This document shows, one piece after another, positions 705 to 7,881 of a stretch of 33,430 nt of DNA (position 1 is the first letter of the stretch; each line of letters opens with the position of its first letter). Source of the DNA: Eremomyces bilateralis CBS 781.70 (Eukaryota); NCBI GenBank assembly GCA_010015585.1, contig ML975152.1; one strand, given 5' to 3'. The position numbers and the translations under genes are program-made. The notes beneath the pieces are model-generated. The model saw nothing but the letters and a program-made list of their open reading frames with translations. It was not told the origin of the DNA and searched no databases.

Positions 705-2480
705 ATGGGGGCTCTTTCAACCATTCTCGAGCCATTGGCCCAATTCCTGGCCAATTCATCTCTCTCCGTCGTCATACTCGGCGGATCCGTCTTGTTTTTG
801 GTCCTCGCCATCGTCCTCAATGTCCTGAACCAATTGCTATTCCGGAATCCGGCAGAGCCTCCTGTTGTATTCCACTGGATTCCCTTCATCGGAAATACGG
901 TCCCGTATGGAATTGACCCCTTCAAGTTCTTCTTTAGCTGCCGCGAAAAGGTTCGAGACGACTCTTTCAGTCCTCCCCATGGAATGTTGCTAACCGCAGT
1001 ACCTTCAGTACGGAGATGTGTTCACCTTCATTCTACTGGGGAAGAAGACAACCGTCTGTCTGGGAACCAAGGGAAACGAGTTCATCCTGAACGCAAAACA
1101 CAAGGATGTCAATGCAGAGGAGGTATACAGCGCTCTTTGCACACCGGTTTTTGGCAAAGATGTGGTCTATGATTGCCCGAACGCCAAGTTGATGGAGCAA
1201 AAAAAGGTATGGTTACCGCGTATGACTATTAAGATGTTACGTGTACGCGTGTTACGACTAGCAACTAACGGTCGATTAGTTCATCAAGTTCGGTCTCACC
1301 CAAGACGCCCTTCGGTCCTACGTGCATATCATTTGCAAGGAAGCCAACGACTACATTGGAAGTGCTAAGGCCTTTCAAGGACAACGCGGCACCGTTAATA
1401 TACCTCCTGCCGTCAGTCAATTAACCATCTTTACTGCCTCTCATACATTGCAAGGTGCAGAGGTCCGATCCCGATTCAACCATTCATTCGCCGAACTATT
1501 CCACGATCTCGACAAAGGTTTCTCGCCGATCAATTTCGTGCTGCCATGGGCACCTCTGCCGCATAATCGGAAACGAGATGCTGCCCATCAGAAAATGGTC
1601 GAGATCTACTCTGAGATTATTCAGACCCGGCGTCAACCGGGCGTCACGAAGGATTCAGAAGACATGATTTGGAATTTGATGGATTGCAAATATAAGGACG
1701 GCAAGGCGATCCCAGACTACGAAATTGCCGGCATGATGATCGCGCTGCTCATGGCTGGGCAGCATAGCAGTAGCAGCACCTTTGCATGGATGTGCCTCCG
1801 TTTGGCGGACAATCCGGAGGTCATGGACGAGCTGTTGGAAGAGCAGAAACAGGTTCTTGGCCAAGATCTTCCAGACATCACCCATGAGCACTTGCAGAAA
1901 CTGCCACTCCACGCTGCTGCTGTACGGGAGACTTTGCGCCTTCATGCGCCGATCCATAGTATCATGCGGAAAGCGACCTCACCACTACCCGTTGCCGGCA
2001 CCTCTTACGCCATCCCGGCCGGCCGTACATTACTTGCTTCCCCTGGTGCGACTTCGAGGATGCCCGAGTACTTCCCCAATCCTATGGTCTGGGACGCACA
2101 CCGCTGGGAAGACGGCTCTCCAAACCATCCGAGTCTCGGAGCAACGGATGATGATGAGAAAGTGGATTATGGATACGGTCTTGTCTCCAAAGGAACGAGC
2201 AGTCCTTATTTGCCTTTCGGGGCGGGTCGACACCGGTGCATTGGCGAGCAATTCGCCTATGTGCAACTTCAGGCGCTCCTTGCGGTGTTCGTGCGGACGT
2301 TTAAGTTCAAGAACTTGCCTGGCAAGGAAGGTGTGGTAGGAACTGATTTCTCGGTGAGTTCCCTTGTTTACTGTTCGATTGAACTATTGTCGCTAATATT
2401 TGATCCAGTCTCTCTTCTCCAAACCCTTTTCTCCTGCTATAGTCGAGTGGGAGAAGCGTCAAAATGCAAAGGGCGAGTAA
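705..2480 (+). CDS. cyp51: Sterol (eburicol/lanosterol) 14-alpha-demethylase, CYP51B-like; exons 705-950, 1009-1206, 1280-2353, 2409-2480 (~529 aa)
   Basis: Motifs [42 protein letters not shown] and heme-binding [11 protein letters not shown]. Three GT-AG introns with branch sites join the ORF pieces in frame. Confidence 0.97.
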
Positions 2481-3064
2481 GATTGAGCAAGGCGCGGATA
2501 AGGGTAATATAGAATTGGTGTTTGCTAGCATCGGAATATGTACTAGCAGATTAATGCCGCATAATACTGTGATTGAGCGCGCTGACGATCGTAACGCGAG
2601 ATGATCGTTAGCATAAGTAGGTTGTGTAGCTTACTACCAATATTAATTTATCCTTTCCATAGGTCCTATTGTACTACTAGTGACATTTGATATTATCAGA
2701 AAGGGTGAATAGAGAGACTATTAAGGTTGCCTGCAATATGCGGACAATGGTGCGCCGTCCACAGTGGAGTCTCACGGAACCGAGATGCGAAGCCTTATGG
2801 AAAAGTCACCTGAGATGCATATGCTGGTTGCAGAGAGGTGAGCGGCGAAGCGGAAATTTTCTTATTACAAGGGTCAAACAATAGGTTGTGCCAGAATCGC
2901 AAGTATGGACTTGCATGGACAAGGTGACGAAGACGAGATGAGATTTATAACAAGGCGATATATGCCTTCCCAAATTCATTCCGTCCCTCAGACCAATCGC
3001 GAGGATTTTCATGACGATCAGCACTCGGTAAGGAGAAGCACACTCTTCCCGAGCCCGCTTCCGC

Positions 3065-5060: not shown

Positions 5061-5278
5061 GCCGTGTTTTCATTGGTAGGATGCTATGCCGGAACTTTAC
5101 TCACGTAGCATCAATCAGAACTCTGTAGGAGTCGCCAGAGAAACGCAACCTCTTCGCTTACAAACTGGGGACGAACACGGACGTACGTTCGGGCTTAGGA
5201 GATACAGTTGTTGCATGTCTTGATCTAACCGGAACGTTAATACGAAGTCCTCTCATTCGAAAGCACCGACGTACATGC

Positions 5279-7881
5279 ATGGCGACAACGTCAGCGCGGG
5301 CAACCCCCCCGAAATTGGTCCCCCCAAATAGACGAAGGGATAAACCCCAACTATCATGCAATCTTTGCAGAAGGAGAAAGTATATAGCCATGACCTAATG
5401 CCATTGCCTCAGTAGCTTACTCGTCTTCAGGTTGAGATGTGACCGAAGCGATCCATGCTGCAACTGCACGAAGCGTGGCTTGACGTGTACCTATGCTTGT
5501 TTGCCTAACCGGTCATCGAACTCCAAACAAGAAGAGAACCCCGACCGTGGGCTATTTGACAGGATCAGTCAACTTGAAGTTCTCGTAAATAAGCTCCAGC
5601 GCAAGCTTGATGCCTCTCAGGGTGCCGAAGCGGTCAAATCACCACGAAGTCCTAGGGGTCGTGCCTCTAATGGTATCCATGATGGCACAACTCTGGGCCC
5701 AGAATTGGCTGATGAACAACTTACCGATACATTTGGAAGGATGTGTCTCCGAGAAAAGACATCGAAGTATGTCAGCGAGTCTCATTGGGGATCGATGCTT
5801 GACGATGTAAGGTTTCCTGCGTTTGATGCTCGTCACCTCGCTGCTGATATCCACCTAGCTGGGTGAGTTGGAGGATTTAGAATCGAACAAGGGCGACGTC
5901 GAAATGAAAAATGAAGAAGGACCGGAGCTTTTGTACGGCAACAACCGGGCCAGCCGACAACAGATTCTATCCTCTCTCCCGCAAAGAGCAATCTGTGATT
6001 CAATGATCGACACATTTTTCATGAAACTCGGATTGGCATCAGGTCAGTACACGTCCCGAATGATACAGCCTCCAGCTCATGATATCAGGTGTCCTACACC
6101 AACCGACATTCGCAAAAGAGGTAAGATCTATGACAATGCTGAAGGACCAATATTTACAGTTGATAGTACGCAGCTTTCTGGGACAACCCAGCCGATACAC
6201 CTATAATGTGGATCGGTATATTGTACAGTGTGTTGTGCGTGGTAAAGATGTTCGAGGCGTTTATGGGTGGCGTAACCCCCGTGGGGATTGTGGAGCCAGC
6301 CCGTACATACGCCCTTGTCGCCATCGGACGAAACGGGAAAGATACGCAATGTTACCGCCAGCGGGCAGCGCAGTGTCTTGTGATGGGGAAATACCTGAAG
6401 GGGGATCCGTATACTGTAGAAGGGCTGCTTTTATACAGTTTGATTGAGTATCTCCTGTCTCCGGACTCGCCCGTTGGGGCCCATGTTCTATTCTCGATTC
6501 TAGCACGTGTTGCAATCAGAATGGGATACCATCGGGATCCGTCCCATTTTCCTAAGATATCAGCATTGCAGGGTGAAATCCGACGAAGGGTGTGGGCATT
6601 TGTTTGTGAAGGGGATCTTCTGGTGTCATTTGCGGTTGGATTACCAAGAAGCATCAAAGAGTCGATCTCCGATACGGGCCGGCCTTCAAATTTCCTCGAT
6701 GGGGATATCGATGAGTCGATGCATCAGCTCCCAGCCCCGCGACCTCTGACCGAGTATACCCCGGTCCTCTTCAACATTCATCGTCGACAGATTGGGCATC
6801 TGATGGGGGAAATTCTCGATTTGATGAATTCACCGACGCCGAAACCGTACTCGGAGATAATGCGCCTCGACAGTCTGCTCTGCGAGACGGTATCGGACTT
6901 TCCCGAATGCCTGCGATTCAAACCCGGAGATGAAGGCAAGGATTGTGGGTATGTCCACCTGTGTCGCATGTATCTTGATGAGGCTTTCAACAAGGCACGT
7001 TGTATTCTTCACCGGAAGCATCTTGTCGCAGGCCGTACTCTTCCTCAATATGCATTTTCCCGGAGCATGTGTCTGGAAGCTGCGCTGAACATCCTGAAGC
7101 TTCAGATCTCGAGCGCCGATATGACGGTTTCAGGAGTCGCGGTGCTAGGAATTGCACTCGAGCTTAAACGCTGGAAGCTTTACACTATCGTCAATCAGAA
7201 CCATCTGTTAGCAACAACGATTCTGTGTGTGGACTTATACCGAGAGCTCTTACAAGATCCCGATGTCCGCCAGCAGCCGCCAAGTTTAAATAATCCGACC
7301 GTGATAGGTGTATTGAAACACACCTATGGACTTTTGGAGGAGTATGGCCGCATGTACCAGGAACCTCAAAGGGTAATGCAGGCATTGGGCATGGTGTTGG
7401 AGAAGGCCGAGAAGATGAACTCCGATACCTATGGGCATTGTCCGTTATATATCCCCGACAACTTCGATACGGCAACCGCTGCTAGTGCGTCACATTGTAA
7501 GTCATATGTTCTTGTCAAAGAGTAGACCTGCCTGGTCATTAATATTTCTTAGCATCGAGTTCCGCCACGTATGTTCCAACTCCAGCATTGAATAGCGTGG
7601 GGTCAGTCACTTCGGTCCAAAATCCGACACTCGAGTCAATGGCGACGCCAAATATGTTTCCTGATCTCTGGTCTTTCGCAAACTTCCCAGTAGGGGCACC
7701 GTACGCGGTAGCAAACCATCCAGATCCATTACATTGGGTTAGTCACCGTTTCCTTTGAACTTCTGTATTGTGTTCGGATAAGACTGACTTTGGGTAGAGT
7801 GACTGGGGGGCGGCGGAAGACGAGCAACAACTCAATGCTTTATTGGATTTAGATAGCAATGTCTTGGGAAATTTGTGTTAG
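5279..7881 (+). CDS. Zn2Cys6 transcription factor with fungal TF middle-homology domain; exons 5279-5379, 5431-5806, 5859-6042, 6089-6120, 6167-7496, 7553-7737, 7798-7881 (~763 aa)
   Basis: Spliced binuclear cluster SCNLCRRRK|LRCDRSDPCCNCTKRGLTCTY and motif AIRMGYHRDP...GEIRRRVW. Six GT-AG introns keep the frame; the last two exons are less certain. Confidence 0.92.

What the first reader, a model, noticed from the sequence alone, without database searches (positions are those of the whole stretch)
705..7881. CYP51 + DHA1 efflux pump + Zn2Cys6 regulator: candidate antifungal-resistance cassette
Seen: three compact adjacent genes encode a drug target, an efflux pump of the Mdr1/Flu1 family and a divergently transcribed regulator. 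CGG elements occur in both promoters. Known: azole resistance arises by target change, DHA1 efflux and Zn2Cys6 activators (Mrr1-MDR1, AtrR-cyp51A), and extra CYP51 copies act as self-resistance genes in restricticin/lanomycin clusters. Inference: this is either a stand-alone inducible module against CYP51 inhibitors, or the right edge of a biosynthetic cluster lying left of the window.
Basis: partly seen in the sequence, partly recalled or inferred. Interest (0 to 1): 0.75.

Follow-up and report, generated by a model that had tools for sequence, protein, structure and literature searches.

The report
Ordinary CYP51B beside a pump-regulator pair
The three genes are real, but the sterol demethylase looks like the fungus's normal housekeeping copy, and only the efflux pump and its neighbouring regulator behave as a unit, so a dedicated antifungal-resistance cassette is not supported.

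Summary
The window comes from Eremomyces bilateralis CBS 781.70, a dung-inhabiting Dothideomycete.

CYP51 is an ordinary Cyp51B-type sterol 14-alpha-demethylase.
- It nests among Pleosporomycetidae Cyp51B orthologues, in a clade that includes four sequences labelled Cyp51B in the pan-fungal study.
- It keeps all catalytic motifs.
- It is no more divergent than other isolated lineages.

I found no link between CYP51 and the pump elsewhere. In the four other species with both hits, the closest pump relative lies on a different contig from CYP51B.

The MFS pump and the Zn2Cys6 factor do recur together. They are adjacent in Penicillium chermesinum and five genes apart in Podospora didyma. Both resemble the exporter-regulator pair of equisetin-type clusters (eqxG/eqxF = MFS-T/TF23 = fsa7/fsa6). 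In that pair the factor is induced by the product and is needed for pump expression.

CGG triplets are not enriched upstream of CYP51. The shared pump-regulator promoter holds one 8-bp CGG tandem array.

Best reading: a housekeeping CYP51B sits next to a two-gene inducible efflux unit. The CYP51 copy number and the DNA left of the window could not be checked.

The parts
705..2480 (+). CYP51 gene of Cyp51B type. Four exons: 705-950, 1009-1206, 1280-2353, 2409-2480. 529 aa. One N-terminal membrane anchor.
   Evidence: Gene model. 100% identical to P0001, '14-alpha sterol demethylase Cyp51B', E. bilateralis. Pfam p450 at 1.8e-59. Best solved match is A. fumigatus CYP51B (4uyl, 5frb, 6cr2; 513.7 bits). 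Tree placement.
3065..4718 (-). MFS transporter gene, drug:H+ antiporter type. Three exons: 4718-4441, 4390-3364, 3313-3065. 517 aa; the deposited model starts 36 aa later.
   Evidence: Gene model. Pfam MFS_1 at 3e-40. 100% identical to P0121. 57-59% identical over nearly the full length to the Swiss-Prot entries prlG (P0158) and phm3 (P0161). Crude hydropathy gives 11 clear peaks plus one weak one, in a 6+6 arrangement.
5279..7881 (+). Zn2Cys6 transcription factor gene. Seven exons in my model, 763 aa. The deposited model has 742 aa and ends at 7758.
   Evidence: Gene model. The six-cysteine pattern is encoded at about 5357-5493, split by the first intron. Pfam Fungal_trans at 4.1e-06. PF00172 plus PF04082 are precomputed for P0398.
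4719..5278 (.). Shared divergent promoter of the MFS and TF genes (560 bp).
   Evidence: Bounded by the two start codons. CGG/CCG count is 22 against a shuffle mean of 17.7.
5026..5060 (.). Tandem array of an 8-bp unit (consensus CGGAGGGT, 3.5 copies). It places five CGG triplets 8 bp apart, at 5026, 5034, 5042, 5050 and 5058. Candidate binding array for a zinc-cluster factor (inferred).
   Evidence: TRF score 49, 95% matches. CGG positions. It lies about 220-250 bp upstream of the TF start and about 310-340 bp upstream of the MFS start.
1..704 (.). Upstream region of CYP51. No coding signal was seen. No CGG enrichment.
   Evidence: ORF list. CGG/CCG count is 12 against a shuffle mean of 14.1.
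525..539 (+). 15-mer whose core 10-mer (reverse complement AGGATCGGAG) also occurs in the MFS-TF array (5029-5038) and upstream of the GTPase gene (8457-8471). A lead only.
   Evidence: 173 of 5000 shuffles of 1-704 share a 10-mer with 5012-5064 (chosen after the fact).

Best explanation
The region holds two separate things that happen to be neighbours.

(1) CYP51 is the resident Cyp51B-type sterol 14-alpha-demethylase of Eremomyces bilateralis. This is the housekeeping ergosterol-pathway enzyme that every filamentous ascomycete examined carries.

(2) The MFS transporter and the divergently transcribed Zn2Cys6 factor form a two-gene efflux unit of a recurrent kind. The factor acts on the shared 560-bp promoter, probably through the CGG array at 5026-5060. 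It switches on the 12-helix proton antiporter when a toxic small molecule is present, and the pump exports that compound.

What is shown: the gene identities, the layout, the Cyp51B placement, the recurrence of the MFS-TF linkage in other fungi, and homology to the exporter-regulator pair of equisetin-type clusters.

What is inferred: that the factor regulates the pump, that the array is its binding site, that expression is inducible, and what the substrate is. Nothing points to azoles or other CYP51 inhibitors.
For: Organism and gene identity.
- All three proteins are 100% identical to consecutive E. bilateralis entries: KAF1815010, KAF1815011 and KAF1815012.

CYP51 is Cyp51B-type.
- Of the 120 listed hits (from 3444 with E<=0.001), 0 are named Cyp51A or Cyp51C and at least 6 are named Cyp51B.
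- I built an IQ-TREE from 50 of those 120 hits (the named, near full-length ones) plus 8 non-Pezizomycotina outgroup rows. The window protein groups with Pleosporales (ultrafast bootstrap 86, SH-aLRT 85), then with Lineolata (83/93), inside a 21-row clade (94/97).
- This agrees with the genome-scale placement of Eremomycetales in Pleosporomycetidae (PMC7082219, passages read).
- Four rows or their 90% clusters carry accessions that Supplementary Table 2 of PMC9635630 labels Cyp51B: Endocarpon XP_007803001.1, Coniosporium XP_007781094.1 and Parastagonospora XP_001794253.1, plus Bipolaris maydis ATCC 48331, whose two entries are both labelled B.
- The best solved match is A. fumigatus CYP51B.
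- Divergence is unremarkable. Mean identity to the other 49 rows is 63.8%, against 64.6% for Microthyrium and 66.2% for Endocarpon.
- There are 15 departures from columns conserved at 90% or more, all conservative, against 17 for Cryomyces and 12 for Microthyrium.
- According to PMC9635630 (section 10 read), all Pezizomycotina examined had Cyp51B and 63 of 171 had only Cyp51B. Its Supplementary Table 1 lists 32 Cyp51 proteins in 25 Dothideomycete species.

CYP51 and the MFS are not linked elsewhere.
- Four other species appear in both hit lists: Massariosphaeria, Clohesyomyces, Microthyrium and Lasallia. In all four the contig lengths of the CYP51B hit and the MFS hit differ.

The MFS-TF pair recurs.
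- Four other species appear in both the MFS and TF hit lists.
- In Penicillium chermesinum the two genes have consecutive accessions in two strains.
- In Podospora didyma they lie five accession numbers apart on one contig.
- In Periconia macrospinosa and Mollisia scopiformis they are on different contigs.

Named relatives.
- MFS relatives include prlG, phm3, 'fsa7' and 'trichosetin cluster MFS' (54-59% identity).
- TF relatives include 'fsa6' and 'fsdR' (35-45% identity over partial lengths).
- Table 1 of PMC10967133 equates eqxF = TF23 = fsa6 and eqxG = MFS-T = fsa7.
- PMC5408200 shows TF23 is induced by trichosetin and is required for MFS-T expression.
Against: - The CYP51 copy number in this genome was not determined. 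A second, more canonical copy could rank below the 120 listed hits.
- No Cyp51A or Cyp51C reference sequence was in the tree, so the B assignment rests on nesting among labelled B sequences. Support for the exact position is only moderate (83-94).
- The end branch of the window protein is long: 0.45 against a median of 0.17.
- The MFS-TF type of pair usually sits inside a biosynthetic cluster. No cluster is seen to the right, so if one exists it lies to the left and CYP51 would be inside it.
- The CYP51 promoter shares one 10-mer with the MFS-TF array (nominal 173 of 5000 shuffles).
- The TF's similarity to 'fsa6' and 'fsdR' proteins is low. Those names were assigned automatically to Colletotrichum proteins.
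- Orthology of the MFS hits used for the contig comparisons is uncertain because the family is large. The Lasallia clusters have several members, possibly from different assemblies.
Confidence: 0.6

Rival explanations
1. The trio is the right edge of a biosynthetic gene cluster lying left of the window. The MFS and TF are its export and regulation genes. CYP51 lies inside the cluster as a self-resistance or target-supply gene against a CYP51 inhibitor made by the cluster.
For: - The named relatives of both the MFS and the TF come from PKS-NRPS clusters.
- No core biosynthetic gene lies to the right, so any cluster would have to lie beyond CYP51.
- CYP51 genes embedded in clusters are a known self-resistance device for restricticin and lanomycin. 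I read this only in passages of the review PMC13515044; the primary paper PMC8119659 is not held.
- The CYP51 branch is long (0.45).
Against: - CYP51 is placed where the species' own Cyp51B orthologue should be.
- It has only conservative departures at conserved columns, a count matched by Cryomyces and Microthyrium.
- No second E. bilateralis CYP51 appeared among the 120 listed hits.
- At least 704 bp left of CYP51 carry no coding signal.
- Stand-alone MFS-TF pairs are common. The equisetin-type products linked to the named relatives are not known to me as CYP51 inhibitors (recalled).
Confidence: 0.1
2. The trio is a stand-alone, co-regulated three-gene module. The Zn2Cys6 factor raises both the pump and CYP51 in response to azoles or natural CYP51 inhibitors, by analogy with AtrR acting on cyp51A and cdr1B.
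For: - The three genes are adjacent.
- A 10-mer from the MFS-TF array recurs at -177 of CYP51 (173 of 5000 shuffles).
- A second shared 10-mer overlaps a CGG-N11-CCG site at 386-402.
- AtrR co-regulates cyp51A and a pump gene in A. fumigatus (PMC5215518; title and start of abstract seen in the listing).
Against: - The same 10-mer, within a 14-of-15 matching 15-mer, also lies upstream of the unrelated GTPase gene at 8457-8471. It is therefore not specific to the trio.
- Overall the two promoters share 2 10-mers against 0.79 expected (408 of 2000 shuffles reach 2).
- CGG triplets are not enriched upstream of CYP51.
- None of the 81 TF hits is named AtrR, Mrr1 or Upc2.
- CYP51B and the nearest MFS relatives are unlinked in the other species checked.
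Confidence: 0.1
3. The MFS-TF pair is not a drug-efflux unit. The transporter moves a nutrient or metabolite, and the factor controls a catabolic or other pathway. Alternatively, the two genes are regulated independently.
For: - MFS_1 proteins and Fungal_trans factors are very large families. Several TF hits carry the automatic UniRef name 'xylanolytic transcriptional activator'.
- The pair is unlinked in 2 of 4 species checked.
- No experiment exists for this organism.
Against: - 54-59% identity to exporters of toxic tetramic acids.
- A drug:H+ antiporter-type motif at residue 218 (the motif definition is recalled).
- Linkage in 2 of 4 species is far above chance for genomes of about 10,000 genes.
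Confidence: 0.15

Closest known systems
Cyp51B group of Pezizomycotina (Celia-Sanchez et al. 2022, PMC9635630); solved example A. fumigatus CYP51B (PDB 4uyl, 5frb, 6cr2)
   Same: Same fold and motifs. The window protein nests among sequences labelled Cyp51B and gives 513.7 bits to the A. fumigatus CYP51B chain.
   Different: It is somewhat more divergent than most orthologues: mean 63.8% identity and an end branch of 0.45. Microthyrium and Endocarpon are comparable.
TF23 / MFS-T of the Fusarium fujikuroi trichosetin cluster (= eqxF/eqxG, fsa6/fsa7)
   Same: A Zn2Cys6 factor sits next to a 12-helix MFS exporter of the same families. In the Fusarium system the factor is induced by the toxic product and is required for pump expression (PMC5408200). 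MFS identity to cluster exporters is 54-59%. The TF has hits named after fsa6 and fsdR.
   Different: No PKS-NRPS, enoyl reductase or Diels-Alderase gene is visible. The right flank is a housekeeping GTPase and the left flank is CYP51B. TF similarity is low (31-45%, partial). The substrate is unknown.
CYP51 self-resistance copies in the restricticin and lanomycin clusters (Liu et al. 2021)
   Same: A CYP51 gene lies next to transport and regulatory genes.
   Different: Those are additional copies inside a PKS-containing cluster (from passages of the review PMC13515044; the primary paper is not held). Here the gene behaves as the species' own Cyp51B orthologue, and no biosynthetic core gene is in view.
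AtrR acting on cyp51A and cdr1B (A. fumigatus); Mrr1 acting on MDR1 (Candida albicans)
   Same: A zinc-cluster factor controls a pump and, for AtrR, also the azole target.
   Different: In those systems the factor is not adjacent to its targets (recalled). None of the 81 TF hits is named AtrR or Mrr1. No CGG enrichment upstream of CYP51. Relatedness to Mdr1 or Flu1 was not tested.

Membership tests
Cyp51B group (fungal sterol 14-alpha-demethylase, paralogue B) | P450 fold with the CYP51 signature motifs: heme-binding FxxGxxxCxG, ExxR, PER, and I-helix AGQHSS | tested here: met
   Pfam p450 at 1.8e-59. The residue-by-residue alignment to A. fumigatus CYP51B shows these motifs identical.
Cyp51B group (fungal sterol 14-alpha-demethylase, paralogue B) | Falls inside the clade of sequences labelled Cyp51B in the reference phylogeny | tested here: met
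   In the tree the window protein is nested among rows whose accessions are labelled Cyp51B in Supplementary Table 2 of PMC9635630 (Endocarpon, Coniosporium, Parastagonospora, Bipolaris). Support along the path is 83-94, and 100 for all Pezizomycotina rows.
Cyp51B group (fungal sterol 14-alpha-demethylase, paralogue B) | Separate from the Cyp51A and Cyp51C clades | tested here: inconclusive
   No A or C sequence could be obtained for the tree. Indirectly, 0 of the 120 listed hits are named Cyp51A or Cyp51C.
Cluster-embedded self-resistance CYP51 (restricticin/lanomycin type) | An extra copy in addition to the housekeeping CYP51 | not testable with these tools
   No fungal genome or proteome can be queried by organism. 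Only one E. bilateralis protein appears among the 120 listed hits, and 3324 further hits were not listed.
Cluster-embedded self-resistance CYP51 (restricticin/lanomycin type) | Co-located with core biosynthetic genes (PKS, NRPS or terpene synthase) | tested here: inconclusive
   None lies in the 25 kb to the right. That stretch holds a GTPase, an NLR-like gene, a hydrolase and a C2H2 factor. Only 704 non-coding bases are visible to the left.
DHA1 drug:H+ antiporter family of the MFS | MFS_1 domain with 12 transmembrane helices (6+6) rather than 14 | tested here: inconclusive
   MFS_1 at 3e-40. Crude hydropathy gives 11 clear peaks plus one weak segment, with a central loop at about 258-314. 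This is consistent with 12 helices, but no dedicated topology predictor or structure was used.
DHA1 drug:H+ antiporter family of the MFS | Antiporter motif C (G-x3-G-P-x2-G-G) in helix 5 | tested here: met
   The pattern is found at residue 218 of the model. The motif definition is recalled, not taken from a call.
DHA1 drug:H+ antiporter family of the MFS | Specific relatedness to Candida Mdr1 or Flu1 | not tested
   No Mdr1 or Flu1 sequence was available. None of the 120 listed hits carries such a name.
Zn2Cys6 fungal transcription factor | N-terminal C-x2-C-x6-C-x5-C-x2-C-x6-C zinc cluster plus the Fungal_trans middle domain | tested here: met
   The cysteine pattern is read in the spliced model. 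PF00172 and PF04082 are precomputed for P0398. PF04082 scores 4.1e-06.
Product-inducible exporter-regulator pair of equisetin-type clusters (eqxF/eqxG = TF23/MFS-T = fsa6/fsa7) | MFS homologous to the cluster exporters | tested here: met
   59% identity to prlG (P0158) and 57% to phm3 (P0161), both Swiss-Prot entries, over about 465-490 residues.
Product-inducible exporter-regulator pair of equisetin-type clusters (eqxF/eqxG = TF23/MFS-T = fsa6/fsa7) | TF homologous to eqxF/TF23/fsa6 | tested here: inconclusive
   The only hits are proteins automatically named 'fsa6' (35-45% identity over 158-291 residues) or 'fsdR' (35% over 473). The reference proteins themselves were not among the hits.
Product-inducible exporter-regulator pair of equisetin-type clusters (eqxF/eqxG = TF23/MFS-T = fsa6/fsa7) | TF and MFS genes are neighbours | tested here: met
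   Here they are divergent across 560 bp. They are adjacent in P. chermesinum and five genes apart in Podospora didyma, but unlinked in 2 of the 4 species checked.
Product-inducible exporter-regulator pair of equisetin-type clusters (eqxF/eqxG = TF23/MFS-T = fsa6/fsa7) | Located in a PKS-NRPS cluster and induced by its product | tested here: inconclusive
   No PKS-NRPS gene is in the window. The left flank is unseen. Induction cannot be tested here.

The most novel reading that the evidence does not exclude
Eremomyces bilateralis carries, just left of the window, an undescribed biosynthetic cluster for a natural CYP51 inhibitor. Its Cyp51B-derived gene sits inside the cluster, between the core genes and an fsa6/fsa7-like detoxification pair. 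The gene serves as the resistant target, possibly doubling as the only sterol demethylase of the fungus.
Probability: 0.07. Interest if true: 0.7.

Novelty: new member of a known kind. Interest (0 to 1): 0.2.

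Why it matters
As it stands, this is an ordinary piece of a saprobe's genome, and the result mainly guards against over-reading gene adjacency. Two points carry some modest value.

- An exporter-regulator pair of the kind characterised inside equisetin-type clusters also turns up apparently outside any visible cluster, and it recurs in distant fungi. This fits the idea that such detoxification pairs travel and persist on their own, for instance as defence against competitors' metabolites in dung.
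- If the unseen left flank did hold a cluster, the locus would be a lead to a natural CYP51 inhibitor. That can be settled in minutes on the public scaffold.

Tried and rejected
- **Library of 50%-identity representatives.** I searched with the CYP51 exon hoping to obtain Cyp51A and Cyp51C references. The best 150 were mostly fragments or non-Pezizomycotina sequences. They served only as outgroups, and they carried no A or C labels.
- **Eremomyces in the pan-fungal Cyp51 paper.** It does not occur in the 6 supplementary files, so that paper gives no copy number for this species. Its Supplementary Table 4 gives similarity percentages only and no consensus motifs, so a motif-level A/B/C test was not possible.
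- **Restricticin primary paper.** PMC8119659 is not held. Its content is cited only through review passages. PMC12616698 mentions CYP51 only in its reference list.
- **Literature search on the organism.** A search for 'Eremomyces bilateralis' found 13 papers, none on sterol genes or secondary metabolism judging from the listing.
- **CGG enrichment.** Rejected. The 8-mer array unit with up to 1 mismatch gives 30 matches in the window against 26.5 expected.
- **Shared promoter words.** Not above chance overall.
- **SrbA/AtrR site search in the CYP51 promoter.** Abandoned, because the passages I read in PMC9241776 give no motif letters.
- **Site-heterogeneous tree model.** It did not finish in time. 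LG+G4 was used instead.
- **ARAGORN.** It found no tRNA, although Rfam finds one.
- **Collection scans.** Genome contigs holds only bacteria and archaea, so I ran no scan.

Full report
**What is there**

The window is eukaryotic, with short GT-AG introns. I read the frames and the sequence and built three gene models. All splice in frame with consensus intron ends of 46-73 nt.
- CYP51: 705-2480 (+), 529 aa.
- MFS transporter: 4718-3065 (-), 517 aa.
- Zn2Cys6 factor: 5279-7881 (+), 763 aa.

Each largest exon finds a 100% identical protein of Eremomyces bilateralis CBS 781.70 on one 1,593,860-bp contig. The three accessions are consecutive: KAF1815010, KAF1815011 and KAF1815012. My models differ from the deposited ones only at one acceptor site (3 aa), the MFS start codon (36 aa) and the last TF intron. 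The stated coordinates and layout are therefore correct. CYP51 and MFS are tail to tail, and MFS and TF are head to head across 560 bp.

E. bilateralis is a dung saprobe. It is the type species of Eremomycetales within Pleosporomycetidae (PMC7082219, passages read).

**Which CYP51 is it**

Evidence from similarity:
- After the self hit, the next best hits are only 60-66% identical. They come from many classes.
- None of the 120 listed hits is named Cyp51A or Cyp51C. At least six are named Cyp51B.
- The best solved structure is A. fumigatus CYP51B (513.7 bits). The heme-binding, ExxR, PER and I-helix motifs are all intact.

Evidence from a tree (the quick version is):
- I took the 50 named, near full-length hits of the 120. 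The 70 unnamed, fragmentary or partial hits were left out. I added 8 full-length non-Pezizomycotina representatives as outgroup.
- The outgroup rows I looked up are Tilletia, Funneliformis, Calcarisporiella, Linderina and Polychytrium. Two rows are unnamed.
- Under LG+G4 the window protein joins Pleosporales (86/85), then Lineolata (83/93), within a 21-row clade (94/97).
- This is roughly where Eremomycetales belongs. Its exact species-tree position is itself unstable (PMC7325674, passages read).

Evidence from published labels:
- Four rows or their 90% clusters carry accessions labelled Cyp51B in Supplementary Table 2 of Celia-Sanchez et al..
- These are Endocarpon XP_007803001.1, Coniosporium XP_007781094.1, Parastagonospora XP_001794253.1 and Bipolaris maydis ATCC 48331.
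- The window protein therefore lies inside the labelled Cyp51B clade.

Evidence from divergence:
- The end branch is long: 0.45 against a median of 0.17.
- Mean identity to the other 49 rows is 63.8%. Microthyrium (64.6%) and Endocarpon (66.2%) are alike.
- The 15 departures at columns conserved at 90% or more are all conservative. Cryomyces has 17 and Microthyrium 12.

Background from that paper: all Pezizomycotina examined had Cyp51B, and 63 of 171 had only B (section 10 read). It lists 32 Cyp51 proteins for 25 Dothideomycete species.

Conclusion: this is most simply the species' own Cyp51B.

Limits: no Cyp51A or Cyp51C sequence was in the tree. The copy number in this genome could not be determined. 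Eremomyces is not in that paper's supplements.

**Is the trio a unit**

CYP51 and the pump:
- Four other species occur in both the CYP51 and MFS hit lists: Massariosphaeria phaeospora, Clohesyomyces aquaticus, Microthyrium microscopicum and Lasallia pustulata.
- In all four, the contig lengths of the two hits differ. Their closest MFS relative is therefore not on the CYP51B contig.
- The Lasallia clusters have several members, so that case is weaker.
- The MFS family is large, so orthology of these hits is uncertain.
- Kalmusia likewise has its CYP51 and TF hits on different contigs.
- Several Pleosporales CYP51 entries carry kinase names, or belong to 90% clusters that also hold models of about 1000-1130 aa. 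This hints at fused models with a different neighbour there. I did not follow this up.

The pump and the factor:
- Four other species occur in both the MFS and TF lists.
- Penicillium chermesinum has consecutive accessions for the two genes in two strains (KAJ5225990/91 and KAJ6160811/10).
- Podospora didyma has them five numbers apart on one contig (KAK3386678 and KAK3386673).
- Periconia macrospinosa and Mollisia scopiformis have them on different contigs.
- Two linked cases out of four is far more than chance for genomes of about ten thousand genes.

**What the pair resembles**

The pump:
- It is 54-62% identical to hundreds of Pezizomycotina transporters.
- Those with informative names are exporters of decalin-tetramic-acid clusters. 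They include prlG (P0158) and phm3 (P0161), both Swiss-Prot entries, at 59% and 57% over nearly the full length. Proteins named fsa7 and 'trichosetin cluster MFS' also appear.

The factor:
- It has only 81 hits, the best non-self one at 39% identity.
- They include Colletotrichum proteins automatically named 'Fusarisetin A cluster transcription factor fsa6' and 'Pyrrolocin cluster transcription factor fsdR'. Identities are 35-45% over partial lengths.

The experimental precedent:
- Table 1 of PMC10967133 equates eqxF = TF23 = fsa6 and eqxG = MFS-T = fsa7.
- Janevska et al. (PMC5408200, abstract and passages read) showed that TF23 is induced by trichosetin, not by the pathway activator TF22.
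- They also showed that TF23 is required for MFS-T expression, and that both deletion mutants are more sensitive to the toxin.
- One sentence of that paper numbers the fsa genes differently. I follow the review's table, which matches the UniProt-style names in the hit lists.

This gives a tested precedent for the mechanism I propose: a substrate-induced factor turns on the adjacent pump. The substrate here is unknown.

**Promoters**

- CGG/CCG triplets are not enriched upstream of CYP51. There are 12 against a shuffle mean of 14.1.
- They are only mildly more frequent in the divergent promoter. There are 22 against 17.7, and 50 of 500 shuffles reach 22.
- The distinct feature is an 8-bp tandem array at 5026-5060 (TRF score 49). 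It gives five CGG triplets in phase and is a reasonable candidate site for a zinc-cluster protein (inference).
- A 10-mer from the array recurs in reverse orientation at 528-537, 177 bp before the CYP51 start. After the fact, 173 of 5000 shuffles of the CYP51 upstream region share a 10-mer with the array.
- The same word, within a 14-of-15 matching 15-mer, also lies before the unrelated GTPase gene at 8457-8471.
- Overall the two promoters share 2 10-mers against 0.79 expected, and 408 of 2000 shuffles reach 2.
- I treat this as an unexplained lead, not as evidence of co-regulation.

**Surroundings**

To the right of the TF the window holds:
- a GTPBP1-like GTPase;
- an intron-containing tRNA;
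- an NLR-like SIR2-NACHT-WD40 gene broken by an assembly gap;
- an ORF without a family match;
- a long low-complexity ORF with a second gap;
- an alpha/beta hydrolase;
- a C2H2 factor.

There is no PKS, NRPS or terpene gene. To the left only 704 bases are visible, with no coding signal.

**Verdict**

- The link to CYP51 as drug target, extra copy or self-resistance gene is not supported by anything I could test.
- The reading that a cluster lies to the left keeps a small probability. The pair's relatives are usually cluster genes, and the left flank and the CYP51 copy number stayed unchecked. No fungal genome collection was available here.

Noticed in passing
window 11791-11904 (-): Rfam finds a tRNA (48.3 bits, full model, 114 nt, so probably intron-containing). 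ARAGORN reported none.
   Followed up: partly
window 13339-17180 (+), N run 16308-16784: An NLR-like gene with SIR2_2, NACHT/NPHP3_N and WD40-like parts, typical of fungal non-self recognition genes. An assembly gap interrupts it inside the repeat region.
   Followed up: partly
window 21315-24050 (-), N run 21633-21742: A 911-codon open frame, Ser/Pro/Arg/Asp-rich and of low complexity, with no Pfam match in the part tested. It contains a second assembly gap.
   Followed up: no
window 525-539 and 8457-8471 (+); also 5029-5038: A 15-mer matching 14 of 15 lies upstream of both CYP51 and the GTPase gene. Its core 10-mer is also part of the MFS-TF tandem array. With up to 1 mismatch the 10-mer occurs 9 times in the window against 3.0 expected (0 of 100 shuffles reach 9). 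It may be a common promoter element of this fungus.
   Followed up: partly
window 18142-18816 (+): A 224-codon open frame rich in Arg, Trp and Gln, with no Pfam match. It lies in a stretch with strong AT skew. Possibly a decayed mobile-element remnant (a guess, untested).
   Followed up: no
CYP51 relatives P0004, P0016, P0049; cluster members P0495, P0508, P0509: Several Pleosporales CYP51 entries are named 'serine/threonine protein kinase (Chk2)', or share a 90% cluster with models of 989-1129 aa. This suggests gene models fused with a neighbouring gene, and so a different CYP51 neighbourhood in that order.
   Followed up: no
window 705-7881: The deposited gene models differ from mine at three points. 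CYP51 uses an acceptor 9 nt upstream, adding 3 residues absent from relatives. The MFS starts at the second in-frame ATG. The TF lacks the last intron and ends at 7758.
   Followed up: yes
window 415-436: A 7-bp inverted repeat, GAATCAC-N8-GTGATTC, about 270-290 bp upstream of CYP51. Its half-site resembles the sterol regulatory element as I recall it. This was not tested against any published motif.
   Followed up: no
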